NCBI GenBank assembly: GCA_028338895.1
Contig: JAOLAV010000001.1
Span: forward strand, 9,315-73,314
DNA: 64,000 bases
Reading direction: 5' to 3'
Source of the DNA: Fidelibacterota bacterium
GTDB taxonomy: Bacteria > Fidelibacterota > Marinisomatia > Marinisomatales > UBA1611
How positions within the stretch are numbered: position 1 is the first letter of the stretch; the number at the start of each line of letters is the position of its first letter. The notes under the pieces were generated by a model, which was not told where the DNA came from, searched no databases, and saw only the letters and a list, made by a program, of their open reading frames with translations. Positions 5,938 through 44,530 of this stretch are shown here, one piece after another. The position numbers were made by a program, and so were the translations under genes.

Positions 5938-5952
5938 GATTTTATTTAAATA

Positions 5953-12976: not shown

Positions 12977-12978
12977 TT

Positions 12979-16867: not shown

Positions 16868-16976
16868 AATATCATTTTACTTTTAATACACTTCTAAATA
16901 TCCTCCTACTGGGCGTACTATTTTTCACATATTGTATATATTCTTTCTTATTCAATAAATAAATGAAAAAAATTTT

Positions 16977-18470
16977 ATGAAAGGTAATATAATATTTTTA
17001 CTCTTTGCTTTTTTAAATGCTCAAGAATGGGAGAGTTCTTTTAGCGCTGGTAATTATGATGAGAATAATAATCTAATGGGTGGATCTGAAGTCTTACATT
17101 TAGTTGCTCATAAAAATAGATTATTCGCATCTATCAGTTACTGGCAAGATGAATCTAATATATGGTATGGAGGAAATAATACTAATATTGGTTGGTCTCA
17201 AATTATTTCTCTAGATGGTCCAAATAACACCTGGTCTGTAGATTTAGACCTTGATTCTTATTACTTAAGACCTGAGATTTTAAAAGAAATTATTTTCACT
17301 AAAAATGCTGGTGGAAATCTATTAGAGACTCCAGATACTCTATTGATCGTTGCGGCTTACTCTTCCAACTATATTTCTGGACCTGTGATTGCGAGTGCTT
17401 TTGTTCGAAATAATAATGATTGGGATCAAACAATTATACATCAAGGGAGTTTGCCTGCCGATGAAGATTACTCCTTGAGAGATATGGAATTATACACTGA
17501 TCAGATAACGGGAGTTGAGCATTTACTTATTTCAGTTGGAACAAAAGGTCTTTTTTCTGGAAAATATAATCCAAGCATTGCCGGTAAAATAGAATGGAGT
17601 CCAGAGCCTGAGATTGGCCCCTTAAACATTCGTCCACTGGGTATTGCGATTGCAAACAATTTTTTATATTTCTCCTCCGGGAATAAACTATATGTTCGGA
17701 ATGATGGCGAAAACCCGACTTATTCTATTGCTCATGATTTTAGCGATTTAAGTTCAAATATTAATTCCGATGTCGGAGGAGTAAGAGGCTTAACAGTCAT
17801 AAAAAATGAAAATGAAAATAATGATTCAATGATTTTAATGTGGTGTCCAAATGGACAATCAAAAGGGCTAATTTTTCGCTTAGAACCTAATTTGAACGGA
17901 GGATTTAACAGAGTTTATGAAACAAAACTTTCATTACTTGTAGAAGATTATTTGCCTGGTGCTTCCGTTAATTATTTACTTGGAGCATACAATGAATTTT
18001 TAAAAGTATTTAATCCTTTGGAAAATGAGTATGTCCACATCGTTGGCTTTGAATCTACAATACAAGGTGGTAACTATCCATCTTGGAATGGATATTATGG
18101 AGGAGCATTATTTGCTGTAAGAAATAGTAATGCTGAGTATACATTAGAACAGGTCAATGATTCTATATCCTTTGATGAAACTCCATTAGTTGCAACTAGA
18201 TGTTATGTTCAATCACCATTTAATGGCGAGAGTGCTATTTATTTTGGAGGTTTTGATCCAAATGGTTTTTTATCAACGAATAAAGCTTGGATTTACAAAC
18301 AAATATTTTCTTTAAGTGGAGATATTAATAATGATGGAGTTATCAATATCTTGGATGTTTTACAATTAGTGAACTTAGTTTTATCTAGTGAATATGAAGA
18401 AAATGCAGACTTAAATAGTGACTCTGCTGTTAGTATTTTTGATTTACTGCAACTGATCGATAAAATCTAA
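16977..18470 (+). CDS. secreted protein with C-terminal dockerin-type domain
   Basis: Signal peptide. C-terminal GDINNDGVINILDVLQLVNLVL...DLNSDSAVSIFDLLQLIDKI. Confidence 0.65.
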   Translation: MKGNIIFLLFAFLNAQEWESSFSAGNYDENNNLMGGSEVLHLVAHKNRLFASISYWQDESNIWYGGNNTNIGWSQIISLDGPNNTWSVDLDLDSYYLRPEILKEIIFTKNAGGNLLETPDTLLIVAAYSSNYISGPVIASAFVRNNNDWDQTIIHQGSLPADEDYSLRDMELYTDQITGVEHLLISVGTKGLFSGKYNPSIAGKIEWSPEPEIGPLNIRPLGIAIANNFLYFSSGNKLYVRNDGENPTYSIAHDFSDLSSNINSDVGGVRGLTVIKNENENNDSMILMWCPNGQSKGLIFRLEPNLNGGFNRVYETKLSLLVEDYLPGASVNYLLGAYNEFLKVFNPLENEYVHIVGFESTIQGGNYPSWNGYYGGALFAVRNSNAEYTLEQVNDSISFDETPLVATRCYVQSPFNGESAIYFGGFDPNGFLSTNKAWIYKQIFSLSGDINNDGVINILDVLQLVNLVLSSEYEENADLNSDSAVSIFDLLQLIDKI

Positions 18471-18675
18471 ACAAATATCATTTCTTTTAAAGTTCTAGAG
18501 TTCAGAAATCAAAATTTCTCAAGTTTAGCTCATTAGTAATATTTCTTATTCTATTTTGAGTAAATTAAAAAACTAAAGTTTCTATTGACCTCTTAAAACG
18601 AACTAAAAAACATAACGAAATAGAAGTACAATAATAGAAAAAATAATGATAATTAAAATTTTTGTAATTTGAAAT

Positions 18676-18963
18676 ATGAAATCAAAAATAAAATCAGACT
18701 ATAAAGTAAATCAAAATATTTATTATAGATCCGGAATCTTTTTTATGTTTATTACTTTAATTATTAACCTGTCAACAAGATTAGGAATAGCTCCATTAGA
18801 TTGGAAATCTTTACGTCTTTTTTCAGGGTCAGTCGGTATATCATTCTATTTTTATGGGATTTATATCTATTATAAAAAAACACGGGATTTATCATTTTTA
18901 AAACAAACTTTTTTAGTGCTATTTATAGGAGTATTCATCTTATTTATATTTTATCTTACATAA
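18676..18963 (+). CDS. small membrane protein
   Basis: 95-aa ORF with three hydrophobic segments. Confidence 0.4.
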   Translation: MKSKIKSDYKVNQNIYYRSGIFFMFITLIINLSTRLGIAPLDWKSLRLFSGSVGISFYFYGIYIYYKKTRDLSFLKQTFLVLFIGVFILFIFYLT

Positions 18964-19029
18964 TTAGGCACAAAGGATAATACGGATTCTTGTATAGTTC
19001 TAATTTTCCAATCGTGCTCTAAATTTTCG

Positions 19030-19212
19030 CTAAGAAAGCCACCTTACTATTAAAGGTATTGGGTCATATATACCTGTTACAATTAGGTATAAGAATACAA
19101 TCAAAATAATAGTGAGTAAAGTTATAGTGAAAAGCCCAAAAGAAAATATCCTAAAAATTTTATTCCAGGAGTACCAAATAAAATCAAAGAAGATTGTAAT
19201 TATCTTTTTCAT
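19030..19212 (-). CDS. small membrane protein
   Basis: 60-aa ORF with two hydrophobic segments. Confidence 0.3.
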   Translation of the reverse strand: MKKIITIFFDFIWYSWNKIFRIFSFGLFTITLLTIILIVFLYLIVTGIYDPIPLIVRWLS

Positions 19213-19232
19213 TCTACACCTTCGGTGATTAA

Positions 19233-19409
19233 TTATTCTTTGTCATAAGCAAAACCAAAACCAAAAAGTACTATCAAAAAAGGAAAATACCATCCTTGGC
19301 TTTGAATTGTTACTATTGCAAGTGTAAACCCAAATACTGTTGCAAAAAAGAGTATACCCATTAGCCTCCATCGTTGTAAGACTCTCTTCTTTTTAAACCA
19401 TTCAAGCAT
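19233..19409 (-). CDS. small membrane protein (58 aa, below track cutoff)
   Basis: Manual translation MLEWFKKKRVLQRWRLMGILFFATVFGFTLAIVTIQSQGWYFPFLIVLFGFGFAYDKE. Two TM segments. It is tandem with 19030..19212. Confidence 0.3.
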   Translation of the reverse strand: MLEWFKKKRVLQRWRLMGILFFATVFGFTLAIVTIQSQGWYFPFLIVLFGFGFAYDKE

Positions 19410-19654
19410 ATTTAAAGTTAATACAAAATGGAATAAAGATTTTATTACAGTAAATAAAGTACCATGTTTATTTTTTGAATATTTTTAGCCTGATAGACCT
19501 ATTTAGCATAACTTTTTACAACATTTTTTAAATCCTTCTCCTCACTTTAATAAAAAAATAATTTATATGATATCTAGGTATAATCAGGGAATAAAAAATG
19601 CTCCCTCTTATGATCGTCGTTTTTATTATTATGTAATGATGATTATATTCAAAT

Positions 19655-21640
19655 ATGATTCGTTATATATTCCTTATTCTTCTATCATCTATCTCTTTTT
19701 CTCAAGATATAATCGGTGAAGGACTTTCTGGACAGCCTCTACTCGATTATTTGGTGAATAATTACAAGACTTCCACAACATTAGGATATACTAATGCCAG
19801 GGATACACTTTACAAAACAATCGATATTCAGGAAGAGAATCAACTTTCGTGTGTTTATTCTGGGTACACGATAACCCTTGATATAACTCAAGACCCAAGT
19901 ACAAATGCGTATAACCAAGGAATTAACTGTGAGCATACTTATCCACAGAGTATGGGTGCATCAGAAGAACCACAAAAGAGTGATATGCATCATTTATTCC
20001 CTTGCAAATCAAATGTGAACTCATCTCGTGGAAATGATCCATATGCAGAAATACCAGATAATGATACGGATACTTGGTATCGGAATGATTATTCACAGTA
20101 TACAATACCCACAGAATACATAAATGATTTTGCAGAGAAGGATAATCCACCGAATTCGAATAATGAAGTATTTGAACCAAGAGAAGATCATAAAGGTAAT
20201 GCCTCACGGGCTATGTTTTATTTCTTTACGATGTATAACAATGTAGCAGACCAGAATTTTTGGGATATTCAAAAAAATGTATTATTAGAATGGCACTATT
20301 ATGATGAGGTCGATGATTCAGAATTAAATAGAACTTGGGCAATTGCATCCTATCAAGAGAATCAACCCAACCCATTTGTATTAGACTCTTCACTTGCCCG
20401 TCGAATATGGTTCATGGATGATGGTGGAACAGATACTTCAAGCACTGACACTTCAAATATAGATACCACCGAGTACAATATTATCATTAATGAGATAATG
20501 CAAAATCCTTTAGCCGTAGGAGATAGTGAGGGTGAATGGTTTGAGATTTATAATAATTCTTATGAGGAAGTTAATTTAAATGGTTTTACAATTAAGGATA
20601 ATGATGATGATTCCCACTTTATTACGGAAGAGACTTTGATTGGACCTCAATCATACGCTGTTTTAGGTCGTAATGCAGATACGACTACTAATGGCGGCAT
20701 AATCCTTGATTATATGTATTCTAATATGAACCTTGCAAATGGTGCTGATGAGATACTTTTAATTGACCCTTACGGGAATACAGTTGATAGTATTACCTAT
20801 GATGGTGGTAGCACATTTCCAGACCCTAATGGTGCAACGATGGCTTTACTTAATTTAAATCTTGATAATAACATTGGTAGCAGCTGGGTTGAATATGACT
20901 CATTGACTTATGGCAACGGAGATTATGGTACGCCAGGTGTATCTAATTTTGCTATAAATATAGAATGGTTATTTACTTTAAGTGAACCGGTTATCACAAT
21001 CTTAGATGATGATAATCAATGGAATCCAGAAGATACTATTTTAATTAAGATGGAACTCTGTAATAACTCCGATTACGACCACAATAATTATCCTGGAGTT
21101 ATCCTTGAAGCCGATTCAAACCTTGTAGGAATAATAAACCAAAACTGGTTTTATGGTATGATGGCAAATACTTGTGATTCAGTGGCTTGGAATGTGATAG
21201 CTAGTAATATAGAAGTTTCCACTCAGGTCAATTTTATTGCTTACCCAACAATATTAAATTGTGATAATAATCCAGAGTTTTGTTTTGAAAGCGACACGAT
21301 TAGTTTCTTTATGCCTATTAATGTTGAGACAGTCTCAAATTATGATAAGATACTGCATCCAAAAGAATACCGCTTACATCAAAATTATCCTAATCCATTC
21401 AATCCAGCTACTTCCATTCAGTATGAACTCCCCAAAGAATCATTTGTTAATGTTTACATATCAAACCTAAAGGGACAACTGATTAGAAAGCTTGTTTCTC
21501 ATAATCAAACGGCAGGATACAAATCTATTCAGTGGAATGGTGTTGACGATAAAAATAAAGTTATTTCTGCTGGGTTATACTTTTATACAATACAAGCAGG
21601 CGATTATAGTCAAACAAAGAAAATGATTTTACTTAAGTAA
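19655..21640 (+). CDS. extracellular endonuclease I family nuclease with lamin-tail-like domain and T9SS CTD
   Basis: CEHTYPQS, DMHHLFP and NSSRGN are endonuclease I motifs. IIINEIMQNP...GEWFEIYNNS...LNGFTIKD is LTD-like. C-terminal YPNPFNPATSIQY...KKMILLK. Confidence 0.8.
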   Translation: MIRYIFLILLSSISFSQDIIGEGLSGQPLLDYLVNNYKTSTTLGYTNARDTLYKTIDIQEENQLSCVYSGYTITLDITQDPSTNAYNQGINCEHTYPQSMGASEEPQKSDMHHLFPCKSNVNSSRGNDPYAEIPDNDTDTWYRNDYSQYTIPTEYINDFAEKDNPPNSNNEVFEPREDHKGNASRAMFYFFTMYNNVADQNFWDIQKNVLLEWHYYDEVDDSELNRTWAIASYQENQPNPFVLDSSLARRIWFMDDGGTDTSSTDTSNIDTTEYNIIINEIMQNPLAVGDSEGEWFEIYNNSYEEVNLNGFTIKDNDDDSHFITEETLIGPQSYAVLGRNADTTTNGGIILDYMYSNMNLANGADEILLIDPYGNTVDSITYDGGSTFPDPNGATMALLNLNLDNNIGSSWVEYDSLTYGNGDYGTPGVSNFAINIEWLFTLSEPVITILDDDNQWNPEDTILIKMELCNNSDYDHNNYPGVILEADSNLVGIINQNWFYGMMANTCDSVAWNVIASNIEVSTQVNFIAYPTILNCDNNPEFCFESDTISFFMPINVETVSNYDKILHPKEYRLHQNYPNPFNPATSIQYELPKESFVNVYISNLKGQLIRKLVSHNQTAGYKSIQWNGVDDKNKVISAGLYFYTIQAGDYSQTKKMILLK

Positions 21641-32795: not shown

Positions 32796-35700
32796 TTAAG
32801 CTGAATGGCGGTTACTGTTTAGACGTTTTACCCATTGTTGAAGACTTGCCATCTTTTCAATCATTATGCTACATACTCCGAATGATTCTTTCACAATACC
32901 TCGAATAATAAATAATTTTTCCCATTGAAGAAGATCTCCAAATTCTTTAAAAGCTTTAGGAAATAAAACACATTCATAAATATCTGTCTCATCTTCTAGT
33001 GTTAAAAATTGCATAGGTTCAGATGTACGAGTTATGGACTCTTTATGGGTAATACACAAACCGATTAAGTAAATTGATTTACCACAATAATTTGAAATAT
33101 CTTTAGCATAAATAATCCGATTACTGAGTATTCCTCTATACCGAGATACTGGATGGATAGAAATGAGATAACCAAAAGATTCTATTTCTAGTCTAAAAGT
33201 ATCTTCCTCATCAATTTTACGATTTAGAGGATTTCCTAACAGGGTATTTCGATTTTTATTTTGCAGGTAATACCCTGCAACTTTATATGCAATCTGTTGG
33301 TGACTTAAGTTGAATCCTATTTTGTCAAAGCAGCTTGCATTTGTAAGTGCCATCGCATCTGCCAGATCAAGGTCTACACGGATTAGAAAGTCATCAAGAG
33401 AATCAAAAAAACCAGCTTTTCGTTCATCCAAAATTAGATAAATTGATTTTTTACGAAGATTTTTAATACTCATAAAACCCATTATAATTTTATCATCATA
33501 ACCTCGCCATTCATAGTAGCTCTTGTTGATATCTGGTTTAATAATTATAATCCCAAACCTCCTTGCTTCACTCATGTATGCATAAGAAGAATAGAAACCA
33601 CCTCTATTCGATATTACCGCGGCTAAAAATTCTGCGGTAAAATGGGCTTTAAGATATGCACAAGTAAATGATAACATGGCATAAGAAGCCGAATGAGATT
33701 TACAAAAGGAATAACCCACGAAAGAAGAAATCATATCCCAAACATCATGAATTACTTCATTAGAATACCCCCTATCTATACATAGGCTGGTAAACTTTTT
33801 TTTCCACAATTTTATATGGCTCTGCATAGAATCACGACTCATTGTTTTACGTAATATTTCTGCTTCACTATATTTTAAACCAGCCATTTTCATAACCGCT
33901 ATCGAGACCTGTTCCTCATAAACCATAATACCATAACTTTCATTTAAAAAGTCTAAATCAGGGTGGATCAAATCCCACTTTTGCCCATGTATTCTAGAAA
34001 GCATTATATTCGTAAACCTATTAGCGGCTGGCCTGATAATAGAGGAGTAAATAACTAAGTGATTAAAATCAACAACTCCTGATTTTGATAATAACTGCCT
34101 AGTTGCAGGACTTTCTATATAAAAGACACCCATTGTTCTTCCAGACTTCATTATTTCATTTGTCTTTTTATCTTCTATCGGTTGAATATAATGATAGTTA
34201 AAATACTTTTTATCTATTTCATCCCCTTGATAATTCAAATTAATATGTTTAATCGTGTCACGAACAACAGATAAACTACGATTACCTAAAATATCAATTT
34301 TTAACAAACCTGAATCTTCGACTTGATCTTTTTCCCATTCTACAATCTGTACACCTTTAGGTGCCTTAAGAACTGGAACATATTTTTCAATCTCATCAGG
34401 TACAATAACTACCCCTCCAGAATGAACTGACGAGTGCCTAAAAGATCCAATTATTTTTTCACTTTCTTTTAAAACCTTAATCAAAGTCTCATCTAAATCT
34501 AGATTAGAAAACTTTGTGTCTGTTCGAATCCAAGAGACTAGATTTTTGCGTGATGTATACCAGCCTATTCTCTTGGTTATCTGATTAATCTCTTCATTAG
34601 AGAGTCCATAAACCTTACCTACTTCTCTAATAGCGGACCTTGGCTTTAAGAATACTTGATTTGAGACCATTGCGGTTCGCTCATCACCATATTTTTTAAA
34701 TATATAATTCAGAATATTATCTCGTTCATCCCATGGGAAATCAATATCAATATCAGGCATATCTTTCCTCTCTGTATGAATAAATCTTTGAAAATTAAGT
34801 GTATACTTAATCGGGTCAACCTGTGTAATAAATAAGCAGTAACTAACAATGGATGCAGCAGCAGAACCTCGACCAATAGTAGCATTGGTCTGCTTAACAA
34901 TATCCTCTACAATTAAGAAATAAGGAGAAAATCCTTTTTCATTAATGAGTTTCAATTCATATTCAATTCTATAACGAATAAGATCATTTAAATTAGTATA
35001 CCGCTTTTTAGCACCAGAATACACTTTATCTTTAAGCTTTGTATTAGACTTATGAGTATTCTTTAAAGAAAGTCCTGGAAAAATTGTATTTATAAATGAC
35101 CAGTTTGTTTTGCAACGGTTAGCTAAATAGTAGCTGTTATTTAAAAAACTTAAGCTGTTTGGAAAGAGCTCTATCATCTGTTCTTCATTTCTAAAGCAGT
35201 GTTGTAATGTTTTATACTGAGAAGAGTCTAAATTATCTTTTGTCGAATTATAATGAATAGCACGAAGTGTTAGATGAGCTTCATGATCACTTTTTGATTT
35301 AAAATAAACATCTCCTGTTACAACAACTTCTAATCTTAATTTTCTAGCTAAATTATGTATGATATTTTCTTGAAATCCAGGTCTTAGCTCTACAAATAAA
35401 TGACTACTTGGAATAATCTTTTTTAATAGACTTAATGTTTTTTCGTTATATGATAAAAAAAATAGACCTATTGATCTATCTCTTATAAGCTCAATAATTG
35501 GTTTATCCAAATTTCTGTGCACATCAGATATAATTCGGCAAAGATTTTCATACCCAGATTGATTTTCTACCAAAACAATTAGTTCATCCATCTTTGTGAT
35601 TAGGTTTACTCCAGCGATCGGACCTAGACCTCTATTACGCGCATGTTGTACAAATCGAATAAAACCCCATAAACCGTTCGTATCAGTTAATGCAATTTTG

Positions 35701-35798
35701 TCCATAGATGATTTTGCTGTCAATTCTACTAAATCATGTAAAGATAAGAGGCCACTCATTTTAGAATAGACTGAATGAGTATTTAAATGAACAAACAT
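32796..35798 (-). CDS. dnaE2: error-prone DNA polymerase III alpha-like (DnaE2)
   Basis: PHP N-terminus MFVHLNTHSVYS. About 1000 aa. It lies immediately downstream of imuB with a 1-nt overlap (TAATG). Confidence 0.85.
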   Translation of the reverse strand: MFVHLNTHSVYSKMSGLLSLHDLVELTAKSSMDKIALTDTNGLWGFIRFVQHARNRGLGPIAGVNLITKMDELIVLVENQSGYENLCRIISDVHRNLDKPIIELIRDRSIGLFFLSYNEKTLSLLKKIIPSSHLFVELRPGFQENIIHNLARKLRLEVVVTGDVYFKSKSDHEAHLTLRAIHYNSTKDNLDSSQYKTLQHCFRNEEQMIELFPNSLSFLNNSYYLANRCKTNWSFINTIFPGLSLKNTHKSNTKLKDKVYSGAKKRYTNLNDLIRYRIEYELKLINEKGFSPYFLIVEDIVKQTNATIGRGSAAASIVSYCLFITQVDPIKYTLNFQRFIHTERKDMPDIDIDFPWDERDNILNYIFKKYGDERTAMVSNQVFLKPRSAIREVGKVYGLSNEEINQITKRIGWYTSRKNLVSWIRTDTKFSNLDLDETLIKVLKESEKIIGSFRHSSVHSGGVVIVPDEIEKYVPVLKAPKGVQIVEWEKDQVEDSGLLKIDILGNRSLSVVRDTIKHINLNYQGDEIDKKYFNYHYIQPIEDKKTNEIMKSGRTMGVFYIESPATRQLLSKSGVVDFNHLVIYSSIIRPAANRFTNIMLSRIHGQKWDLIHPDLDFLNESYGIMVYEEQVSIAVMKMAGLKYSEAEILRKTMSRDSMQSHIKLWKKKFTSLCIDRGYSNEVIHDVWDMISSFVGYSFCKSHSASYAMLSFTCAYLKAHFTAEFLAAVISNRGGFYSSYAYMSEARRFGIIIIKPDINKSYYEWRGYDDKIIMGFMSIKNLRKKSIYLILDERKAGFFDSLDDFLIRVDLDLADAMALTNASCFDKIGFNLSHQQIAYKVAGYYLQNKNRNTLLGNPLNRKIDEEDTFRLEIESFGYLISIHPVSRYRGILSNRIIYAKDISNYCGKSIYLIGLCITHKESITRTSEPMQFLTLEDETDIYECVLFPKAFKEFGDLLQWEKLFIIRGIVKESFGVCSIMIEKMASLQQWVKRLNSNRHSA

Positions 35799-36970
35799 TA
35801 TGACTTCCCTAATGCCTGAAAAATATTAGCTGTTTGTAAAGCATTAACTCCGTATCGCTGCCGAATATTTTCAATGGCCTTAGATAACTCCATATTTTTA
35901 TCATCTATTGTTCTAAATATTGTTACTTGGTCAGCAAAAGGAAAAAAATGGCTAGCAACTATTAAAATTGTTCTAATTCGGTTTCTCCTCTTATTTGCTT
36001 GTTCAAATAATAATTGACAGACTTCTATCACTGAAAAATCATCAAGGCTTTCAACTTTCCCATATTGCAACATTTGATAACCATCAGCATAATGTATTTC
36101 AACTTTTATTTTTTTTGCTAACTGCCATCTTTTTCTTAATTCAAATGCAATCTGCTCAGCAAGATCTTTAACCAATGCATCTAAAATATTTTTAGAGTTT
36201 GTATCTTCGAATAAAATTGTTTGCCTTAAAATAATATCTTTTTCTTCTAATGGTTTAACTGGTCGAGAATCTTTGCCGTGTGATTCTTTTGCAAGTTGAA
36301 CAGAATGGACACCAAATAATATTTTGAATTCATCTGGGCTTTTTATTATCGATTGAAGACTCTTGATTTTATTAATTAATAAAAATTTAATTATTTTATT
36401 TACTGATTTCTCTGATGCGGTAGGCAAAATATCTGGGTCTAAATATGAAAAAAATTGAGATTCTAACCCTTCTTTAACTTGATAAATTTTATCTGAAGTA
36501 ACGGTTGTGATTGTTTGACTTACCAATTTATTAGATCCTATCCCGACTTGTCCGATAACTCTTGTTTTATTATTTATAGATTCAAGAATAGATAAACCAT
36601 TATTTTGAACATCTCCTCTTAAAAGTCGCATACCATTCATATCTAAGAAGAACTCTCCTATTCCTCTTGGCTCAACAATAGGTGTATGCATAGATACAGT
36701 GTTGTAGATATATTTATTTAATTTTGTATAAAGTGATTTATTATAGGGCAACAAGCGAACTCCATGATTTACTTTTCGTATTGTTGAGACTTTCATACCA
36801 CAAGAGAACCCTTCTTCTTCAGCTTCCGGAGATAGAGCAATAATTATACTATTAGAACTATTTGATGATATGATGGCAACAGGACGTTTTTTTAAAGTAG
36901 GATCTATAATCTGCTCTGCCTGAAGCTCTAGACCCTTAAGACGTATGTGAAAAACGTCTCTTACATTCAT
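35798..36970 (-). CDS. imuB: ImuB-like inactive Y-family polymerase
   Basis: Y-family-like fold with the catalytic acidic residues replaced (FHIRLKGLELQ instead of DxD; GIGEFFLDMNG). Gene order is lexA-imuB-dnaE2. Confidence 0.7.
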   Translation of the reverse strand: MNVRDVFHIRLKGLELQAEQIIDPTLKKRPVAIISSNSSNSIIIALSPEAEEEGFSCGMKVSTIRKVNHGVRLLPYNKSLYTKLNKYIYNTVSMHTPIVEPRGIGEFFLDMNGMRLLRGDVQNNGLSILESINNKTRVIGQVGIGSNKLVSQTITTVTSDKIYQVKEGLESQFFSYLDPDILPTASEKSVNKIIKFLLINKIKSLQSIIKSPDEFKILFGVHSVQLAKESHGKDSRPVKPLEEKDIILRQTILFEDTNSKNILDALVKDLAEQIAFELRKRWQLAKKIKVEIHYADGYQMLQYGKVESLDDFSVIEVCQLLFEQANKRRNRIRTILIVASHFFPFADQVTIFRTIDDKNMELSKAIENIRQRYGVNALQTANIFQALGKS

Positions 36971-36980
36971 AGAGTTTTAC

Positions 36981-37601
36981 CTAATTCAAATAATTTCTAA
37001 AAGAATAGAGCAGAACACCGTTGATACGGAAATCATCTGTTGGATCAATTTTTATAATTGGAAAATTTGGGTTTCGAGCATGAAGCTCTACACCATTACT
37101 ACTAGGCATGTAACATTTTAAAGTTGCTTCTCCATTAATAATTGCAACAACAATCTGACCAGATCGAGCAATGCTTGTTTTTTTAGCAACAATAAAATCG
37201 CCATCATGAATCTGTTCTTCTATCATCGAATCACCCTTTACTTGTAGCACATAATGATCCGGATGTAATAAAGATGACGGGACGTCCACCATTTCAGGAT
37301 TTTCTAAAGCTTCAATTGGCTCACCAGCAGCAATTAAGCCCAACAACGGTAAACGAGCCATTGTACTTGTGATGTGCTCATTTTGATTTAAAATAAGCGC
37401 TCGTTTCCCGTTGGGGCCTTTTATACGCGATAGATGACCTTTATCTTCCAAGGTCTTTACATACCAATTAACTGTCCCTAATGATCCAAAGCCTAGACTG
37501 GTCATAATCTCTTCATAAGATGGAGATTGACCATTCATGAGTGTAAACCTTTGAATAAAGTTTAAAAACTTTTCTAATTTAGGAGACAGCATCTTGTTCA
37601 T
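36981..37601 (-). CDS. lexA: LexA repressor
   Basis: wHTH (SPSYEEIMTSLGFGSLGTVNWYVKTLEDKGHL). Cleavage region LIAAGEP. Ser-Lys dyad context VKGDSM ... ATLKCY. ATG 37601 is preferred over the track's TTG at 37640. Confidence 0.85.
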   Translation of the reverse strand: MNKMLSPKLEKFLNFIQRFTLMNGQSPSYEEIMTSLGFGSLGTVNWYVKTLEDKGHLSRIKGPNGKRALILNQNEHITSTMARLPLLGLIAAGEPIEALENPEMVDVPSSLLHPDHYVLQVKGDSMIEEQIHDGDFIVAKKTSIARSGQIVVAIINGEATLKCYMPSSNGVELHARNPNFPIIKIDPTDDFRINGVLLYSFRNYLN

Positions 37602-37753
37602 GAGGTAATAGACAAGTTTGTAATTCCCTTTCCATTCCAAACAATAGATTGGGATGATAATTTATTTGCATGACTATTTAAACGTGAAACAGCACGTATT
37701 ACTTCAAAGGATAACATCTGTTTATTTTTTTTCTTAATAAAATATTTCATCAT
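37598..37753 (-). CDS. 51-aa ORF translationally coupled to lexA (ATGA overlap)
   Basis: MMKYFIKKKNKQMLSFEVIRAVSRLNSHANKLSSQSIVWNGKGITNLSITS. Its stop TGA shares TG with the lexA ATG. It sits between the candidate operator and lexA. Confidence 0.3.
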   Translation of the reverse strand: MMKYFIKKKNKQMLSFEVIRAVSRLNSHANKLSSQSIVWNGKGITNLSITS

Positions 37754-37886: not shown

Positions 37887-39164
37887 TTAAGCAGAGGCAA
37901 CCCAAAGCCCTATAAATAATAATAAACCCGTAACATTATGCATAATAATAGTCCCCCAATTAGCCGGTTCTAAAAGTCTACTATTATAGTGCTTATATAA
38001 AGTTTGAATAGCTCTAAAACCAAAGTAAGCAGCCAGTAGAGAAATCAAAGATTCAGATGGTAACCTCTCACTCAAGACAAGAGCAATAATACTAAGGAAA
38101 GCTCCAACAACTAAGGAAACATAACCGACTCTCGCTTTTTCGGGTCCAAATACCACAATCAATGTCTTCTTTCCTGTTTGTTTATCACTATCATGATCAG
38201 GGAATTCATTCACATAAACAACAGCAGCAATCAATAGACCAATTGGAATACCGACTAAAAAAGCTTCTGGTAAAAGTTTACCCGTCTGTACTAATGCACT
38301 TCCAGCTACCATTAAAGGACCAAAATTTAAACCTATTAATAGTTCGCCTAATCCTTTTCTAGAAGAAAATTTAAAAGGAGGTGCTGTATAGAATAAACCT
38401 GAAAAGAATCCAACTAGTCCTAACCAAAGTACTGGAAGTCCAGCTTTTTGAATTAAAGGAATACCGACAAGAGCACTAAGCCCAAAAGTTACAATGGCTA
38501 AAGTTAGCATACCTTTTGCTGAGATGAGACCCATTTGAATCCCTCGCCCACCACCATTAAGACCAACATTACTATAATTGTAATTTATTTCATCAGTACC
38601 ACTCACGTGATCGTAGTAGTCATTTGATGTATTTGTACCAATTTGTAGTAATGCACCTCCAAGTGCTGTCAGTGCAAGCCAACCCCACTGAATAGGATAC
38701 CCTGCAAACTTTGCGATAGCTGCTCCAACAAAAATAGGAACAAAAGTTGCGGATAAGAATGGTAATCTCATTATCACAACCCATGTGAATATTTTAGTCA
38801 TTATATCAATTTTGGGACGAACCTCATCAGCTGTTTTATCTTTTAGAGGACTTGTAACACCACAATAGCCTATGTGTTCTCCATCTTTTGATTTAGTTGG
38901 CGTTATTTTAATACGAGATGGTAGCTCACTACCATCCTTATGTAAGAAGACAGTATTGCCTTCCCAGACTCCTTTGTCTACAGCTTCAGCAAGCCAACCA
39001 ACGACATGACCAAGAACGACTTGCCCATCACTAAAATCACTGACTCTCATTTTACCAACAACTTCCTCTTCAGAATAACCAAAAAGGTCAACAGCCCCTT
39101 CACTAAATGTTTCGACTTTACCATCTACATCACATGTTATGACACTTTTCAAATGCTCACTCAT
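37887..39164 (-). CDS. PAS domain fused to MenA-like UbiA-family prenyltransferase
   Basis: N-terminal ~110 aa are PAS-like (DGKVETFSEGAVDLFGYSEEEVVGK...FLHKDGSELP). Then a polytopic domain with NDYYDHVSGTD and NEFPDHDSDKQTGKKTL motifs. Confidence 0.7.
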   Translation of the reverse strand: MSEHLKSVITCDVDGKVETFSEGAVDLFGYSEEEVVGKMRVSDFSDGQVVLGHVVGWLAEAVDKGVWEGNTVFLHKDGSELPSRIKITPTKSKDGEHIGYCGVTSPLKDKTADEVRPKIDIMTKIFTWVVIMRLPFLSATFVPIFVGAAIAKFAGYPIQWGWLALTALGGALLQIGTNTSNDYYDHVSGTDEINYNYSNVGLNGGGRGIQMGLISAKGMLTLAIVTFGLSALVGIPLIQKAGLPVLWLGLVGFFSGLFYTAPPFKFSSRKGLGELLIGLNFGPLMVAGSALVQTGKLLPEAFLVGIPIGLLIAAVVYVNEFPDHDSDKQTGKKTLIVVFGPEKARVGYVSLVVGAFLSIIALVLSERLPSESLISLLAAYFGFRAIQTLYKHYNSRLLEPANWGTIIMHNVTGLLLFIGLWVASA

Positions 39165-39239: not shown

Positions 39240-40013
39240 TCACACTGGATAAAAAATCGGTCGGCTTGGTGCAGCATCTAGATTCCAATTAGGAATTTGA
39301 ATTTGTAAAAAGCCAAAACTGTCCTCTACCGAATTAGGTATGTATAATAATTCAGATATAGTTTTTCCTTTTTTAAAAAATTCATGATGGTTTCCAAGTA
39401 TTCCACCATCATCGGCTTTATCAATTGAAGGTAAATCTACCAGTAGATGCTGGACAGAGAGTTTGCTTAAGTATTTAATAGCATCTGAAGTAAAAAATGG
39501 AGCTATCTCTAGGTCGTAATTCCGGTTTTTTTTGAGGCTTGTATTAGGCAAAGTCCGAATAATTAAAGAGGATATCTGGTCTTTAATTTTACTCACTAAC
39601 ATTTTCTTTGATATTACAAGATCTGAAGCGATTTTAGCATGATATGAATCTGAAGTATTAGATATATGATCAGGCTTTAAAGAAATTAATTGTGAAGGAA
39701 TAAAACTTCTAGGACAAACATCAACTATTTTAGTTTCACTTTCACTCACATGGCTTATACATTCAGTATGAGTTCCTGTACAATGAATATCAATAGAAGC
39801 AATACCAACATTACAACTTCCACCCTGTTTTATATCACCTTTAAAGCCTCCAATTTGAACAGGATTCAGACTCGATTGTTTAGCCTTAAAAAAAATAGGA
39901 TTTTTATTATCAAAGTTATTTTTTAATGAAAGGTCAATCCCCTGGTCAGTTTTTATAAAATATGACCTGCCTTTATACTCGACCTTAGTCGTTAGCTCTG
40001 TTTCAGATTCCAT
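39240..40013 (-). CDS. putative cyclase / arylformamidase-family protein
   Basis: HCTGTHTECISH resembles HxGTHxDxPxH. DLPSID resembles the family's DxxSxD motif. Confidence 0.5.
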   Translation of the reverse strand: MESETELTTKVEYKGRSYFIKTDQGIDLSLKNNFDNKNPIFFKAKQSSLNPVQIGGFKGDIKQGGSCNVGIASIDIHCTGTHTECISHVSESETKIVDVCPRSFIPSQLISLKPDHISNTSDSYHAKIASDLVISKKMLVSKIKDQISSLIIRTLPNTSLKKNRNYDLEIAPFFTSDAIKYLSKLSVQHLLVDLPSIDKADDGGILGNHHEFFKKGKTISELLYIPNSVEDSFGFLQIQIPNWNLDAAPSRPIFYPV

Positions 40014-40227
40014 TTATTAGTTTAATAATCTCTCCATCGTTGGGAAAACGTTTTAGTGATTTTTTTGAAAAAATTAAATTCTCATCAAGCATGACTTCAA
40101 AAACACCTCCACTGCTAGATATCAAATTAATATCAATATTACTAAATTCGTTTTTTAATTCATGTTCCAAACTGGAAGCATTAGGAAGGTAATTTCACAT
40201 GCTACAATATTCGATAGAGACTTTCAT
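40003..40227 (-). CDS. SelW/Rdx-family selenoprotein (C-x-x-U), 74 aa with in-frame TGA at 40195..40197
   Basis: Manual translation MKVSIEYCSM-U-NYLPNASSLEHELKNEF...SSSGGVFEVMLDENLIFSKKSLKRFPNDGEIIKLI matches the Rdx family pattern (IxYC..[CU]. ... GG.FEV...g.LI.SK....FP). The ATG overlaps the upstream stop (TAATG). Confidence 0.75.
40165..40177 (-). other. candidate bacterial SECIS apical hairpin for the SelW-like gene
   Basis: UUCCA-GUU-UGGAA, with the loop G 23 nt after the UGA. Possible lower stem UAAU/AUUA. Confidence 0.4.
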
Positions 40228-40727
40228 TAATCCTCCATTTTTTGTTCATTAAAAAATTTTAAAATATCTTCAGGGTGACTATGAATATTTACTTCATCAA
40301 AAATATGTACTAAAATTCCATTTTCGTCAATTAAAAATGTTTTTCTAGAAGGGAAAAAATAATATTTATTTACTTTATATGCAGAGCCAGTTGTTTTTTT
40401 GCTATCCGATAAAAAGTTGAAAGGTAGGTTATATTTTTCTTTAAACTTTTTCAGACTACTTTTTGAGTCAAAGCTGATGCCTAATATTGAGATATCAAAA
40501 TCACTAAAATTTTGGAATTCATCACGGAACCCACAGGCCTGTTTAATTCATCCAGGAGTCTCAGCTTTAGGGAAAAAATAAATAACAAGTTTTTCACCTC
40601 TGTAATCTTTTAGATTATGCAGCTTATTATCTTGATCATATAATTTAAATTCAGGCGCATGTTCACCAACTTTTAGAGGTGAGCTAAAAAGTAATGTATT
40701 TAAAAATAAAATCAATAAATTTCTCAT
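40227..40727 (-). CDS. BCP/PrxQ-type peroxiredoxin with selenocysteine at the peroxidatic position (U60), in-frame TGA at 40548..40550
   Basis: The track ORF stops at FFPKAETPG-TGA. The same frame continues IKQACGFRDEF...ILGISFDS...FNFLSDS...RKTFLIDENGILVHIFD to TAA at 40227 and is collinear with E. coli Bcp (FYPKAMTPGCTVQACGLRD...). Start placed at ATG 40727. Confidence 0.8.
40523..40541 (-). other. candidate SECIS hairpin for the Sec-peroxiredoxin
   Basis: CAGGCC-UGUG-GG(UU)CC(G)UG begins 7 nt after the UGA. Possible lower stem AAUU/AAUU. The sequence also encodes the conserved QACGFR, so the structure is unproven. Confidence 0.3.
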
Positions 40728-41790: not shown

Positions 41791-42204
41791 GTGATTAAGA
41801 TCAGTATAACTTTACTTTTTATTTTTTTGCAAGCTTGCGATACTAAACCTCCCGTTAATATTTATAAATCAGATGAATACAATAGGTTCACAGAACAAGA
41901 TAGAATAATTGGAGAATCAATTTGGGCAACTACATGTTTTCGCTGCCATATGTACGGCTCAAATGGAGGAAAAACGCTGTCAGAAAAAGATTACTGGAAT
42001 GAAGCAGCAGGTAAAGGATTCCAAGCACTATATAAAAGTGTTTGGGAAGGTAAAGCTGGAGATGAAGGGGTTATGCCACCCAAAGGTCTCTGCAACCCTT
42101 GTTCTGAAGAAGAAATTAAAAAATCAGTATTATATTTATTTCAGCTTGCTAAAAAAATTCAAACATCCGATTCTTTAAAACAGGTTTCTAAATTGAATCT
42201 TTAA
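41791..42204 (+). CDS. class I c-type cytochrome lipoprotein
   Basis: Lipobox LQAC. CFRCH heme motif. GVMPPKG Met ligand region. Confidence 0.7.
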   Translation: MIKISITLLFIFLQACDTKPPVNIYKSDEYNRFTEQDRIIGESIWATTCFRCHMYGSNGGKTLSEKDYWNEAAGKGFQALYKSVWEGKAGDEGVMPPKGLCNPCSEEEIKKSVLYLFQLAKKIQTSDSLKQVSKLNL

Positions 42205-44530
42205 AAAGTGCTGATCCTTCAACAGCATCTGCTAAATTTCGAGCAATGCTTAAAAAACTAGAAACGTTCATCTCTTTTAAGTAAACCGCTCCATGAACTG
42301 CCCTTAAATGAGGGCTTTCATTTCGGTACCAATAATCACGACCTAACATTAACTGGAGATCTCGATGTTGATTCACCCAAATCTTCTGTGAAAGTTCTGA
42401 AAATGGCCCATCAAAATCATAACTTGGAAAGGAAGCTTCTTTTTGACTTAAATAACAATTCATGAAAGTTGAGTTCATAATTGATAGTGAGTTTAATGTA
42501 ACTGGAACAATTATATCTGCTTCTGCTAAATCAAACTTATACCAAACATTTCTATAGCCCCAAATTCTCAAATTTGATAAATCTTTTATCTTACTCCATT
42601 GTCTTACAGCTTCAGCAATTGTTTGTAAAACTTTATAATGTGTATCAGGACCACTTCCTTCAGGATCCAATGCTAATGATATAACAGTCGGGTTTATCTT
42701 TTTCAATTGTTCTAATACTGGAGCAACATCTCTTAAATCTTCTGGTTGCTCTGTGAATATTTCCCCTTGGTAAAAACCTAAACGCAGGTGATTAACATCT
42801 TGAACTCGGACACCATAATTTGCCCAAACTAGCTCTTCTTCATACTCACGAACCATGCCTTTTAATTTTTGAATTTTAGGAGAATTTTTTTGTCCATCAT
42901 AGCTATTATCTAATTCCTCTAAAATTGTTTTCAATCTTTTTTCTAATTGTTTTTTGCTCTCGACGCCATAAACTTCTACTAATGCCCTAACAACTCTGTG
43001 TGAAAGCCCTCTATTTTGGCCTTGAATATCATTATTTGCAATTTTATCTAGATAATGGTAGACATCTTTATCCCATCTATATTTATATCCATCTGTGAAA
43101 AAGTTATCATAATTTATCATTTGAATCTTATCACTATGAAATAAGTCCAATGTCTTTTTAATTATTTTTCGTATGAAGGAATTTGTAACACTTGTAAATC
43201 CCGAAGTCATATTTGTAAAAATATGCTTATTCGTTGGCTCTCGAATTAAATGAATAATGTGTGGCATCATACCCAACATGATATCATCATGATGAGGACC
43301 AGTATGATAATAGACCTGATCTTTTTCTTGTTTAATCCCTTTTTTTACTTTGGCATCAATACTATCAATTATTTCAGAGACAGTATTCTCCGATAGGTTC
43401 GGAATATTTTTACAAATGGAGTCTTCTCTTAATTCATTTAAACTGATCTTTTTACCAAAAATATTCTTTTCTTTTGCCAAATGGAGTAGTGCCCTTTGAC
43501 TCTTTTTCAAATTCCAATCTTTATTCTCCCAATAAACTTTTTTATAGTTCGTCAACTTTTTTGTTGCACCAACTGTGAGATAGAATCTACTATTATTTAA
43601 TTTCTGAAGGCATGTTGCTGGAAATTTAATCGTTGGGGCTGATTCTAAAGACTTTTGAATTATAGCTGATTTTGCTTCTCCAGCAGCAATTATTATTGCG
43701 GTTGCATTTTCGTTATATGTTATTGTTCCTAAGCCAATAGTAATAACCAACCTATTTTTACTAATTTCAATACCGCCTAAGTCTGTTGCTGCGGCGGCTT
43801 GAGTCTCAAAATTTGTCTCCATTAAGCGCGTTGTGGAATTGTGATCAGATCCCCTGACATTAAAAGCAATATGTCCATCGGGCCCAATTCCTCCAAGAAA
43901 AAAACCAATCCCGCCTAAGAATCTAATCTTCTCTTCATACTCGTTACACCATTGATCAATTAAATAGATTGACTCTTGTTGCTTTTCTTCATGTAATGAG
44001 ATGGGATTTCTATATCGTAGACTTAAATCAATTTTACTTTCAGGAAAAACCTGTTCCCAAGGCTCTTTATTATATAGATCAATTTCTCGAGAATTTATTA
44101 ATAGTGATTTTTCTAATGAGAGCTTAAAACCATCAATATAAAAGTGCTTAACATAATCATAAAAAGAATTTTTTTGAATTGGATCTAAGGGATAAAATTC
44201 ATCTATTTGGACAAACTTTAAATTCGAAAGATTTGGTTTCTGATTCGTTTTGAAATTATATTTTTCTAAAAGTGAAGAGACTTTTGGACTTTTCCAATTT
44301 TTAAGTAGATAATGAGTCCATTTGATAAAGTATTCAGGAGTTTTTCCTGTAGGTAGACTGATTACTCCATTAGGATTTTGGATCACCCACTCCAAGAATC
44401 TCAATGATGTTAATAATCCCAGATCGGGAAAATTATCAACAGTAAGGTACGGTAATTTTACGTTTTGATCGTTAAAATTACTTTTTGGAAAGAATGCTTC
44501 TTCAAGAGGAGACCAAGAGTTAAGATTCAT
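42188..44530 (-). CDS. glucosamine-6-phosphate deaminase-like domain fused to LmbE/PIG-L-like deacetylase domain
   Basis: GIGPDGHIAFN (NagB/Pgl fold) in the N-half. HTGPHHDDIMLG (LmbE-type metal motif) in the C-half. Confidence 0.7.
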   Translation of the reverse strand: MNLNSWSPLEEAFFPKSNFNDQNVKLPYLTVDNFPDLGLLTSLRFLEWVIQNPNGVISLPTGKTPEYFIKWTHYLLKNWKSPKVSSLLEKYNFKTNQKPNLSNLKFVQIDEFYPLDPIQKNSFYDYVKHFYIDGFKLSLEKSLLINSREIDLYNKEPWEQVFPESKIDLSLRYRNPISLHEEKQQESIYLIDQWCNEYEEKIRFLGGIGFFLGGIGPDGHIAFNVRGSDHNSTTRLMETNFETQAAAATDLGGIEISKNRLVITIGLGTITYNENATAIIIAAGEAKSAIIQKSLESAPTIKFPATCLQKLNNSRFYLTVGATKKLTNYKKVYWENKDWNLKKSQRALLHLAKEKNIFGKKISLNELREDSICKNIPNLSENTVSEIIDSIDAKVKKGIKQEKDQVYYHTGPHHDDIMLGMMPHIIHLIREPTNKHIFTNMTSGFTSVTNSFIRKIIKKTLDLFHSDKIQMINYDNFFTDGYKYRWDKDVYHYLDKIANNDIQGQNRGLSHRVVRALVEVYGVESKKQLEKRLKTILEELDNSYDGQKNSPKIQKLKGMVREYEEELVWANYGVRVQDVNHLRLGFYQGEIFTEQPEDLRDVAPVLEQLKKINPTVISLALDPEGSGPDTHYKVLQTIAEAVRQWSKIKDLSNLRIWGYRNVWYKFDLAEADIIVPVTLNSLSIMNSTFMNCYLSQKEASFPSYDFDGPFSELSQKIWVNQHRDLQLMLGRDYWYRNESPHLRAVHGAVYLKEMNVSSFLSIARNLADAVEGSALFKDSI

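What the first reader, a model, noticed from the sequence alone, without database searches (positions are those of the whole stretch)
40003..40227. Unannotated SelW/Rdx-like selenoprotein gene with a C-x-x-U redox motif
No track ORF covers this 225-nt stretch, because codon 11 is TGA (40195-40197, minus strand).

Read-through gives MKVSIEYCSM-U-NYLPNASSLEHELKNEFSNIDINLISSSGGVFEVMLDENLIFSKKSLKRFPNDGEIIKLINGI. This reproduces the Rdx (SelW/SelT/SelH) family pattern: IxYCxx[C/U], then GGxFEV and LIxSKxxxxRFP.

A perfect hairpin UUCCA-GUU-UGGAA places a loop G 23 nt after the UGA, within the distance window generally described for bacterial SECIS elements.
Basis: partly seen in the sequence, partly recalled or inferred. 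Interest (0 to 1): 0.8.

Follow-up and report, generated by a model that had tools for sequence, protein, structure and literature searches.

The report
SelW-like selenoprotein gene, missed by callers
This is a real but ordinary gene for a small selenium-containing redox protein of the well-known SelW/Rdx family, missed by gene callers because its selenocysteine codon (TGA) looks like a stop; it sits next to a second selenoprotein gene, a peroxiredoxin, in a marine SAR406 (Marinimicrobia) genome.

Summary
Window 40227..40003 (-) is a 74-codon ORF with an in-frame TGA at codon 11 (40197..40195).

- **Family:** read through, it scores 77 bits on Pfam Rdx and 107 bits on NCBIfam SelTWH_Campy, both above cut-off. 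The AlphaFold model superposes on bacterial SelW-related crystal structures at TM 0.86.
- **TGA conservation:** the TGA falls on the second Cys of the CxxC motif of solved homologs. It is TGA in all 65 parsable relatives, across many phyla.
- **Read-through:** dN/dS is 0.15-0.18 on both sides of the TGA.
- **SECIS:** The window's own copy is weak and not significant alone.
the gene immediately upstream (40727..40227) is a Bcp/PrxQ-type peroxiredoxin with TGA at the peroxidatic Cys. The pair is conserved in 19 related loci, mostly Neomarinimicrobiota MAGs.

None of this is new. SelW-like is the most abundant marine bacterial selenoprotein family (Sargasso 2005, GOS 2008), and GOS already reported adjacent Prx/SelW genes. 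Sec machinery in this genome could not be checked. Interest is low.

The parts
40003..40227 (-). SelW-like (Rdx family) selenoprotein gene, 74 codons: ATG 40227..40225, Sec codon 11, stop TGA 40005..40003.
   Evidence: Translation. Pfam Rdx 77.4 bits against cut-off 22.6. NCBIfam NF041051 107.4 bits against 88, and TIGR02174 67 bits against 34.2. AlphaFold model of the 97%-identical P0001 has pLDDT 90.4. Foldseek match to 2fa8 at TM 0.86, rmsd 1.0 A.
40195..40197 (-). In-frame TGA read as selenocysteine (the U of C-S-M-U).
   Evidence: Aligns with the second Cys of YCTQC in solved Cys homologs 2fa8 and 3dex. It is TGA in 65/65 parsable homolog loci from many phyla. dN/dS is 0.18 upstream and 0.15 downstream.
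40162..40181 (-). SECIS hairpin. Upper stem UUCCA/UGGAA (40177..40173 with 40169..40165), loop GUU (40172..40170), bulged C (40178), lower stem AUG/CAU (40181..40179 with 40164..40162).
   Evidence: Fold. Same position as the family-wide hairpin. On 66 sequences 86% of cells pair, against 23-50% when slid. Pairs 21-33 and 22-32 show 20 and 16 double changes. The stem is built from rare codons: Ser UCC 8%, Leu UUG 11%.
40231..40236 (-). GGAGGA Shine-Dalgarno-like motif 4 nt before the SelW ATG, inside the last codons of the Prx gene. The Prx TAA overlaps the SelW ATG (TAATG).
   Evidence: Read directly from the sequence. Function is inferred.
40227..40727 (-). Upstream partner gene: Bcp/PrxQ-type peroxiredoxin selenoprotein, 166 codons, active site FFPKAETPG-U-IKQAC, stop TAA 40229..40227.
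   Evidence: Translation. Pfam AhpC-TSA 119.7 bits and Redoxin 87 bits. Best NCBIfam match is Bcp PRK09437 at 125.6 bits, below its equivalog cut-off of 140. Public gene calls stop at 59 aa.
40548..40550 (-). In-frame TGA at the peroxidatic-Cys position of the peroxiredoxin (T-P-G-U), with the resolving Cys five residues later.
   Evidence: It is TGA in 17 relatives plus L028 and L038.
40514..40536 (-). Candidate SECIS region of the peroxiredoxin gene. Two alternative hairpins: UGUGG-GUU-CCGUG, or GGGUUC-CGUGAU-GAAUUC.
   Evidence: Pair counts of 81% and 83% without decisive covariation, so the structure is not resolved. The codons involved are rare: GGG 12%, UUC 17%, CGU 16%.
39240..40013 (-). 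Downstream gene of the same transcription direction: PF04199 cyclase / arylformamidase-like protein. Its ATG (40013..40011) lies inside the last codons of the SelW gene.
   Evidence: Pfam annotation. Weak TIGR03035 match at 43.7 bits against cut-off 223. Synteny is conserved in 14 related loci. Functional linkage is inferred only.

Best explanation
Window 40227..40003 (-) encodes a genuine 74-residue SelW-like (Rdx family) selenoprotein.

**Decoding.** During translation the UGA at codon 11 is decoded as selenocysteine. A stem-loop in the mRNA 15-33 nt downstream (the bacterial SECIS, apical loop G-U-U) recruits SelB-GTP-Sec-tRNA(Sec) to the ribosome. The second TGA, at the end of the gene, has no such element and terminates.

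**Product.** It is a minimal thioredoxin-fold oxidoreductase. The C8-x-x-U11 motif, between strand 1 and helix 1, cycles between the selenol/thiol state and a selenenylsulfide.

**Operon.** The gene is translationally coupled (TAATG overlap) to an upstream Bcp/PrxQ-type peroxiredoxin that also uses Sec at its peroxidatic position. The pair probably serves peroxide or redox defence in a marine Neomarinimicrobiota (SAR406) bacterium.

**Shown:** family membership, fold, TGA conservation, protein-level constraint on both sides of the TGA, the conserved covarying hairpin, and the conserved gene pair.

**Inferred:** actual Sec insertion, the SelB interaction, the redox chemistry, and any functional link to the peroxiredoxin.
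For: - **Family membership.** Pfam Rdx E = 1e-21. NCBIfam SelT/SelW/SelH (seleno)protein models score above cut-off.
- **Fold.** The predicted fold superposes on SelW-related crystal structures at TM 0.86, and on mouse SelW at TM 0.75.
- **TGA position.** The TGA aligns to the second Cys of CxxC in solved homologs.
- **TGA conservation.** 65/65 homolog loci from Neomarinimicrobiota, Desulfobulbales, Gemmatimonadota, Calditrichota, Acidobacteriota, Planctomycetota, SAR324 and Effusibacillus have TGA there.
- **Read-through.** dN/dS is 0.18 and 0.15 on the two sides of the TGA.
- **SECIS.** The hairpin is conserved with compensatory changes and beats all slid controls. It is built from rare codons.
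- **Not an error.** The TGA is identical in six independent assemblies.
- **TGA is a normal stop here.** It ends 7 of 38 long ORFs, and Trp is encoded by TGG at a normal 1.5% of codons.
- **Second Sec gene.** It is adjacent, and the pair is conserved in 19 loci.
- **Literature.** SelW-like CxxU is the most abundant marine selenoprotein family, and adjacent Prx/SelW genes have been reported (PMC1088965, PMC2398784).
- **SelD in the phylum.** SelD is recorded in SAR406 single-cell genomes (PMC5029168 Table 1).
Against: - No selA, selB, selD or tRNA-Sec lies in the 64-kb window or the fetched flanks. The rest of the genome could not be searched.
- The window's own SECIS is weak: -5 kcal/mol, z = -0.22. 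It breaks the family's 19-35 and 20-34 pairs and needs a bulged-C alternative.
- No Rfam hit.
- No experimental evidence of selenium incorporation.
- The Prx carries an N-terminal hydrophobic, signal-peptide-like segment that SelW lacks. This argues against the two proteins acting in the same compartment.
Confidence: 0.92

Rival explanations
1. The TGA is a true stop. The locus is either a decaying pseudogene, or it makes only the 55-residue C-terminal fragment started at the TTG at 40170.
For: The mechanical ORF list and JGI gene calls give exactly such 55-64 aa fragments. The window's SECIS hairpin is not significant on its own. No Sec machinery was seen in the window.
Against: - The 10 codons before the TGA (MKVSIEYCSM) are conserved in frame with dN/dS 0.18, and Y7 and C8 are invariant.
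- The fragment would lack strand 1 and the redox motif of the fold.
- TGA, never another stop codon, is kept in 65/65 genomes from many phyla.
Confidence: 0.03
2. TGA is a sense codon for a standard amino acid. Either the organism uses genetic code 4 (Trp) or code 25 (Gly), or there is near-cognate read-through inserting Trp or Cys, without selenium.
For: Public databases hold dozens of full-length 'CxxW' versions of this protein, called with code 4. The genome is AT-rich at 32% GC, as recoded lineages often are.
Against: - Under code 11 the window is packed with long intact ORFs of up to 1000 aa.
- TGA ends 7 of 38 long ORFs, and Trp is TGG at a normal 1.5%.
- The code-4 call P0001 runs through the gene's real TGA stop into junk: 'INGI-W-NRAND'.
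- The only credible in-frame TGAs in 64 kb are at two catalytic Cys positions.
- Each is followed by a hairpin.
Confidence: 0.03
3. The TGA is a sequencing or assembly error for TGC/TGT (Cys).
Against: The region is identical at both TGAs in six independently assembled contigs from different samples. The protein is indexed in 178 blocks of the collection. All 65 homologs have TGA.
Confidence: 0.01

Closest known systems
Bacterial SelW-like selenoproteins (Rdx family, Pfam PF10262; NCBIfam TIGR02174 CXXU_selWTH and NF041051), as described in the Sargasso Sea and GOS selenoproteomes
   Same: Same length class (about 75 aa). Same CxxU motif right after strand 1. Same GGxFEV and LIFSKK..RFP motifs. 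UGA is followed by a small hairpin with G in the apical loop. Marine origin. Scores are above the curated cut-offs.
   Different: Nothing essential. The lower part of the SECIS stem differs from the family consensus (an Asn/His codon pair gives AUG/CAU pairing with a bulged C). The host can now be named as Neomarinimicrobiota.
Adjacent Prx/SelW selenoprotein gene pairs reported from GOS reads (PMC2398784)
   Same: A TxxU peroxiredoxin gene immediately followed by a CxxU SelW-like gene, confined to a narrow phylogenetic group. Here 19 closely related loci share the pair.
   Different: The paper had only short reads and no host. Here the full operon context (KpsF divergent; Prx, SelW, cyclase-like, PAS-UbiA) and the phylum are visible. 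Identity with the GOS sequences themselves was not tested.
Solved Cys-form Rdx proteins: Agrobacterium Atu0228 (2fa8), Streptomyces SAV_2001 (3dex), Pseudomonas 2obk/2oka, Vibrio 2p0g; and mouse SelW (2npb)
   Same: Same fold: TM 0.81-0.87 and rmsd about 1 A to the bacterial ones, TM 0.75 to mouse SelW. The redox motif is at the same position.
   Different: The solved bacterial proteins have CxxC (Cys, not Sec), are about 25-30 residues longer, and share only 19-32% identity. Mouse SelW uses a eukaryotic 3'-UTR SECIS, not an in-ORF hairpin.
E. coli Bcp / PrxQ-type atypical 2-Cys peroxiredoxin, and the Sec-containing Prx (TxxU) of marine metagenomes - for the upstream gene
   Same: AhpC-TSA domain. 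The active-site context is FFPKAxTPG-[C/U]-xxQAC, with the resolving Cys five residues after the peroxidatic position.
   Different: Sec replaces the peroxidatic Cys. There is an extra hydrophobic N-terminal segment of about 16 residues. The score is below the NCBIfam Bcp equivalog cut-off (125.6 against 140).

Membership tests
Rdx (SelW/SelT/SelH) family, Pfam PF10262 | Profile match above the curated gathering score over the whole domain | tested here: met
   77.4 bits against 22.6, profile positions 1-73 of 74. NCBIfam NF041051 107.4 against 88, and TIGR02174 67 against 34.2.
Rdx (SelW/SelT/SelH) family, Pfam PF10262 | CxxC/CxxU redox motif in the loop between strand 1 and helix 1 | tested here: met
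   C8-S-M-U11 follows strand 2-8 and precedes helix 14-27 in the model. It aligns with YCTQC of 2fa8 and 3dex.
Rdx (SelW/SelT/SelH) family, Pfam PF10262 | Thioredoxin-like beta-alpha-beta-beta-beta-alpha fold | tested here: met
   AlphaFold model at pLDDT 90.4. Foldseek top hits are all SelW-related proteins at TM 0.81-0.87. This is a predicted structure, not a solved one. The modelled sequence was P0001, which is 97% identical and has W at the Sec position.
Bacterial selenoprotein (Sec-decoded UGA) | In-frame UGA at a position occupied by Cys in homologs, with coding conservation on both sides | tested here: met
   Cys in solved homologs. TGA in 65/65 loci. dN/dS 0.18 and 0.15.
Bacterial selenoprotein (Sec-decoded UGA) | SECIS stem-loop immediately downstream of the UGA, with a small apical loop containing G | tested here: met
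   Family-level hairpin at positions 18-36 with loop G26-U27-Y28. 86% of cells are paired, with compensatory changes at two pairs. G26 is invariant. The window's own copy keeps 5 upper pairs plus an alternative lower stem, and is not significant alone. The numeric distance window of the bSECISearch model is recalled from memory and was not verified in a paper here.
Bacterial selenoprotein (Sec-decoded UGA) | selA, selB, selC (tRNA-Sec) and selD present in the same genome | not testable with these tools
   None in the window or fetched flanks. The only indirect hint is SelD in SAR406 single-cell genomes (PMC5029168).
Bacterial selenoprotein (Sec-decoded UGA) | Selenium shown in the protein (75Se labelling or mass spectrometry) | not testable with these tools
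   Needs an experiment.
Peroxiredoxin, AhpC/TSA family, BCP/PrxQ type (upstream gene) | AhpC-TSA profile match and the P-x3-T-P-x-[C/U] peroxidatic motif, with the resolving Cys at +5 | tested here: met
   119.7 bits against 26. The sequence reads FFPKAETPG-U-IKQAC.
Peroxiredoxin, AhpC/TSA family, BCP/PrxQ type (upstream gene) | NCBIfam equivalog-level match to Bcp (PRK09437) or PrxQ | tested here: not met
   125.6 bits, below cut-off 140; PrxQ 108.5, below 260. It is therefore filed as BCP/PrxQ-like within AhpC/TSA, not as an equivalog.
Peroxiredoxin, AhpC/TSA family, BCP/PrxQ type (upstream gene) | SECIS hairpin after its UGA | tested here: inconclusive
   Two alternative hairpins, 81% and 83% paired. 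There is no decisive covariation among 18 closely related sequences.

The most novel reading that the evidence does not exclude
The conserved, translationally coupled Prx(Sec)-SelW(Sec) pair of Neomarinimicrobiota is a dedicated two-selenoprotein peroxide-reduction relay, in which the SelW-like protein is the specific reductant that recycles the Sec-peroxiredoxin. That would assign a concrete biochemical partner to the SelW family, whose function is still described as unclear. It would also show that the 'orphan SelD' status given to SAR406 single-cell genomes (PMC5029168) is an artefact of unrecognised selenoprotein genes.
Probability: 0.15. Interest if true: 0.45.

Novelty: already known. 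Interest (0 to 1): 0.15.

Why it matters
**Practical value.** It is a clean worked example of how Sec genes are lost or mangled in metagenome annotation. Long contigs carry a 59-aa 'Redoxin' stub and no SelW gene. Short contigs carry code-4 'CxxW' proteins that pollute protein databases.

**Biological additions.** It assigns the Prx/SelW selenoprotein pair, previously known only from anonymous GOS reads, to Neomarinimicrobiota (SAR406). It also suggests that this abundant dark-ocean phylum uses selenocysteine in core redox defence.

Neither point changes current understanding of selenoproteins.

Tried and rejected
- **Rfam and tRNA scans.** The Rfam scan of the window at gathering thresholds found nothing. 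ARAGORN found no tRNA or tRNA-Sec in the window. The 25 related loci held only one tRNA-Ala.
- **Sec machinery.** I looked for selA/selB/selD among the window's ORFs by Pfam and found none. This is uninformative for a 64-kb piece.
- **Walking along contigs.** Two of four contig look-ups found no exact record. The tool does not allow walking beyond the window.
- **Other TGA-interrupted genes.** A whole-window scan found only the Prx and SelW genes credible. The long hit at 14597 is low-complexity sequence upstream of a TTG-started ORF, and I rejected it.
- **Prx SECIS.** Two structures were tested and neither was resolved.
- **Promoter/terminator scan of 37.7-41 kb.** Counts were at shuffle level, so no usable operon boundaries.
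- **Structure prediction.** It was redone with the 97%-identical database homolog P0001.
- **Published SECIS criteria.** The numeric bacterial-SECIS distance criteria were not in the papers I could read. That criterion is cited from memory only.
- **Cys-form close homologs.** None appeared among the top hits, which were all TGA forms. The Cys comparison therefore rests on the more distant solved structures.

Full report
**1. The observation**

On the minus strand, an ATG at 40227..40225 opens a frame of 74 codons. It reads MKVSIEYCSM, then TGA (40197..40195), then NYLPNASSLEHELKNEFSNIDINLISSSGGVFEVMLDENLIFSKKSLKRFPNDGEIIKLINGI, and ends at a second TGA (40005..40003).

A mechanical ORF list shows only a 55-aa fragment started at a TTG (40003..40170). 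Public gene calls on identical metagenome contigs leave the stretch uncalled.

Its loop G is 23 nt after the UGA.

**2. It is an Rdx/SelW-like protein**

- With the TGA replaced by Cys, the protein matches Pfam Rdx (PF10262) at 77.4 bits (cut-off 22.6, E = 1e-21) over the full profile.
- It matches NCBIfam NF041051 'SelT/SelW/SelH family (seleno)protein' at 107.4 bits (cut-off 88) and TIGR02174 'CXXU_selWTH' at 67 bits (cut-off 34.2).
- Against solved structures it aligns with the Cys-form proteins Atu0228 (2fa8) and SAV_2001 (3dex). Their YCTQC motif sits exactly on YCSM-TGA.
It has pLDDT 90.4 and the order strand - CxxU loop - helix - three strands - helix.
- Foldseek places the model on the SelW-related crystal structures at TM 0.81-0.87 and about 1 A rmsd, and on mouse SelW at TM 0.75.

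**3. The TGA is real, conserved and read through**

The same locus occurs in many marine metagenomes; the neighbouring gene is indexed in 178 blocks. In six independently assembled contigs, the 806-nt region differs from the window at only 2-3 positions. Both TGAs are intact in all six.

A scan of species-representative genomes found 564 relatives. In all 65 of the best 80 loci that I could parse, the codon is TGA. The taxa include Neomarinimicrobiota (closest, up to 75% identity), Desulfobulbales, Gemmatimonadota, Calditrichota, Acidobacteriota, Planctomycetota, SAR324 and a cultured Effusibacillus.

Among 14 Marinimicrobia sequences, median dN/dS is 0.18 for the nine codons before the TGA and 0.15 for the 60 codons after it. 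Both sides are therefore maintained as one protein.

Protein databases hold this gene in two damaged forms:
- Truncated 55-64-aa fragments on long contigs. One of these is 98% identical and labelled 'selenoprotein W-related protein' by JGI.
- Full-length 'CxxW' proteins on short contigs, where the caller switched to genetic code 4. One of them (P0001) runs through the real terminal TGA into 'WNRAND'.

**4. Not an alternative genetic code**

- Under code 11 the window is filled with long ORFs of up to 1000 aa.
- TGA terminates 7 of 38 long ORFs, and Trp is encoded by TGG at a normal 1.5% of codons.
- A scan for genes split by an in-frame TGA found only two credible cases in 64 kb. Both are at catalytic Cys positions.

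**5. The SECIS**

Folded alone, the 60 nt after the UGA give -5.0 kcal/mol, no better than shuffles (z = -0.22).

The comparison does. All homologs form a hairpin at the same place, of the form GCNNCC-A-GUY-U-GGNNGC. Results on a gap-free alignment of 66 sequences:
- The 8-pair stem (positions 18-25 with 29-36, counting the U of UGA as 1) is 86% paired, against 23-50% for slid controls.
- Pairs 21-33 and 22-32 carry 20 and 16 double (compensatory) changes.
- None of 500 shuffles reached the covariation score.
- G26 in the loop is invariant.

The changes cross amino-acid replacements (Ser..Glu to Ala..Ala), so the RNA pairing is what is being kept.

In this 32% GC genome the stem uses rare codons: Ser UCC 8% and Leu UUG 11%.

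The window's copy breaks the consensus pairs 19-35 and 20-34, because it has His (CAU) where relatives have Ala. Together with its Asn codon (AAU), it can instead form AUG/CAU below a bulged C. From memory, this resembles the bulged upper stem of the E. coli fdhF SECIS. I could not verify that, or the 16-37 nt distance rule of bSECISearch, in the papers available.

**6.

Directly upstream on the same strand, 40727..40227 encodes a 166-codon peroxiredoxin. Its peroxidatic position is TGA (40550..40548), in the context FFPKAETPG-U-IKQAC. The resolving Cys lies five residues later, as in Bcp/PrxQ.

- It hits AhpC-TSA at 119.7 bits.
- Its best NCBIfam match is Bcp at 125.6 bits, below the equivalog cut-off of 140.
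- Its TAA overlaps the SelW ATG (TAATG), and a GGAGGA motif lies 4 nt upstream of that ATG.
- Gene callers stop this gene at 59 aa.

The Prx(TGA)-SelW(TGA) pair is present in 17 related loci plus L028 and L038. Where the record names a taxon, these are Neomarinimicrobiota/Marinimicrobia MAGs. They share a conserved neighbourhood: cytochrome c and KpsF divergent, then Prx, SelW, a PF04199 cyclase/arylformamidase-like gene whose ATG lies inside the SelW 3' end, then a PAS-UbiA fusion.

The Prx SECIS could not be resolved. Two alternative hairpins are 81% and 83% paired, without decisive covariation. The codons involved (GGG, UUC, CGU) are again rare choices.

**7. Mechanism**

*Shown:* a conserved UGA at a catalytic Cys column; a covarying hairpin just downstream; coding constraint across the UGA; an Rdx fold.

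*Inferred from established knowledge of bacterial Sec decoding:* SelB-GTP-Sec-tRNA(Sec) binds the hairpin and inserts Sec at codon 11, while the terminal TGA has no hairpin and stops translation. The CxxU motif then cycles through a selenenylsulfide.

*Speculative:* SelW-like recycles the adjacent Sec-peroxiredoxin. Against this, the Prx and its relatives carry a hydrophobic, signal-peptide-like N-terminus that SelW lacks. The two may therefore work in different compartments.

**8. What could not be tested**

No selA, selB, selD or tRNA-Sec lies in the window or the fetched flanks, and the tools do not allow walking further along the contig. The only indirect hint is that three SAR406 single-cell genomes are listed with SelD, as 'orphan SelD', in PMC5029168 Table 1. 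The selenoprotein genes seen here suggest that label reflects missed genes or incomplete genomes. I did not test those particular genomes.

**9. Comparison with what is known, and verdict**

- They were also the most abundant in GOS (427 sequences, generally the top family in marine samples; PMC2398784).
- The GOS paper also reports 'ten Prx/SelW sequences' with the two genes adjacent, from a small phylogenetic group.
- NCBI has curated models that name this protein.

The finding is therefore correct but already known. The modest additions are the host assignment (Neomarinimicrobiota), the full operon context, and a lineage-specific variation in the lower SECIS stem. Interest is 0.15.

Noticed in passing
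window 40227..40727 (-), TGA at 40550..40548: A second selenoprotein gene: a Bcp/PrxQ-type peroxiredoxin with TGA at the peroxidatic Cys (TPG-U-IKQAC). It is translationally coupled to the SelW-like gene and truncated to 59 aa in public gene calls.
   Followed up: yes
window 40680..40727 (-); also L007-L030 upstream ORFs: The Sec-peroxiredoxin and its relatives start with a hydrophobic segment of about 16-20 residues (MRNLLILFLNTLLFSS; MKKIIPIFVLNIVLFG...). It looks like a signal peptide, so the Prx may be exported while SelW-like is cytoplasmic. No signal-peptide predictor was available.
   Followed up: partly
proteins P0001-P0090: Database artefact. On short contigs, gene callers chose genetic code 4, so Sec-encoding TGA appears as Trp ('CxxW'). 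The true TGA stop is also read through (P0001 ends INGI-W-NRAND; P0014 ends SSS-W-VDN-W-NSP). Dozens of such entries exist for this one family.
   Followed up: partly
window 39240..40013 (-): A PF04199 cyclase / arylformamidase-like gene whose ATG (40013) overlaps the last codons of the SelW gene. This arrangement is syntenic in 14 related loci. Its match to the arylformamidase equivalog is weak (43.7 bits against 223).
   Followed up: partly
window 32796..37640 (-): A LexA-like repressor (36981..37640), a Y-family polymerase (IMS domain, 35798..36970) and a 1000-aa DnaE-type polymerase (32796..35798) lie in a row. This looks like a LexA-ImuB-DnaE2 SOS mutagenesis cassette.
   Followed up: no
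window 37887..39164 (-): A PAS domain fused to a UbiA-family prenyltransferase (425 aa). It is 74-79% identical in most related loci that carry it. A sensor domain on a membrane prenyltransferase is unusual.
   Followed up: no
window 1725..21640 (both strands): A run of large secreted proteins with T9SS C-terminal sorting domains (Por_Secre_tail), FlgD-Ig and dockerin domains. They include an LRR/PSCyt1 protein, an endonuclease I-lamin tail protein, a dioxygenase and an esterase. This is consistent with an FCB-group particle-degrading lifestyle.
   Followed up: no
window 42188..44530 (-): A 780-aa protein with no precomputed Pfam hit, conserved in all contigs. It contains a GPHHDDIMLG motif reminiscent of LmbE/PIG-L deacetylases (from memory). 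It sits beside a peptidoglycan/amino-sugar recycling cluster: GH18, peptidase S13, NlpC/P60, AmiA-like, NamZ, GH3, SpoIID and an SSF transporter, 44.5-55.8 kb.
   Followed up: no
literature: PMC5029168 Table 1 against loci L007-L030: Three SAR406 single-cell genomes are published as 'orphan SelD' organisms (SelD but no selenoproteins). Yet the Neomarinimicrobiota/Marinimicrobia MAGs among these loci carry at least two Sec-encoding genes. The orphan status may reflect incomplete genomes or missed TGA genes.
   Followed up: partly
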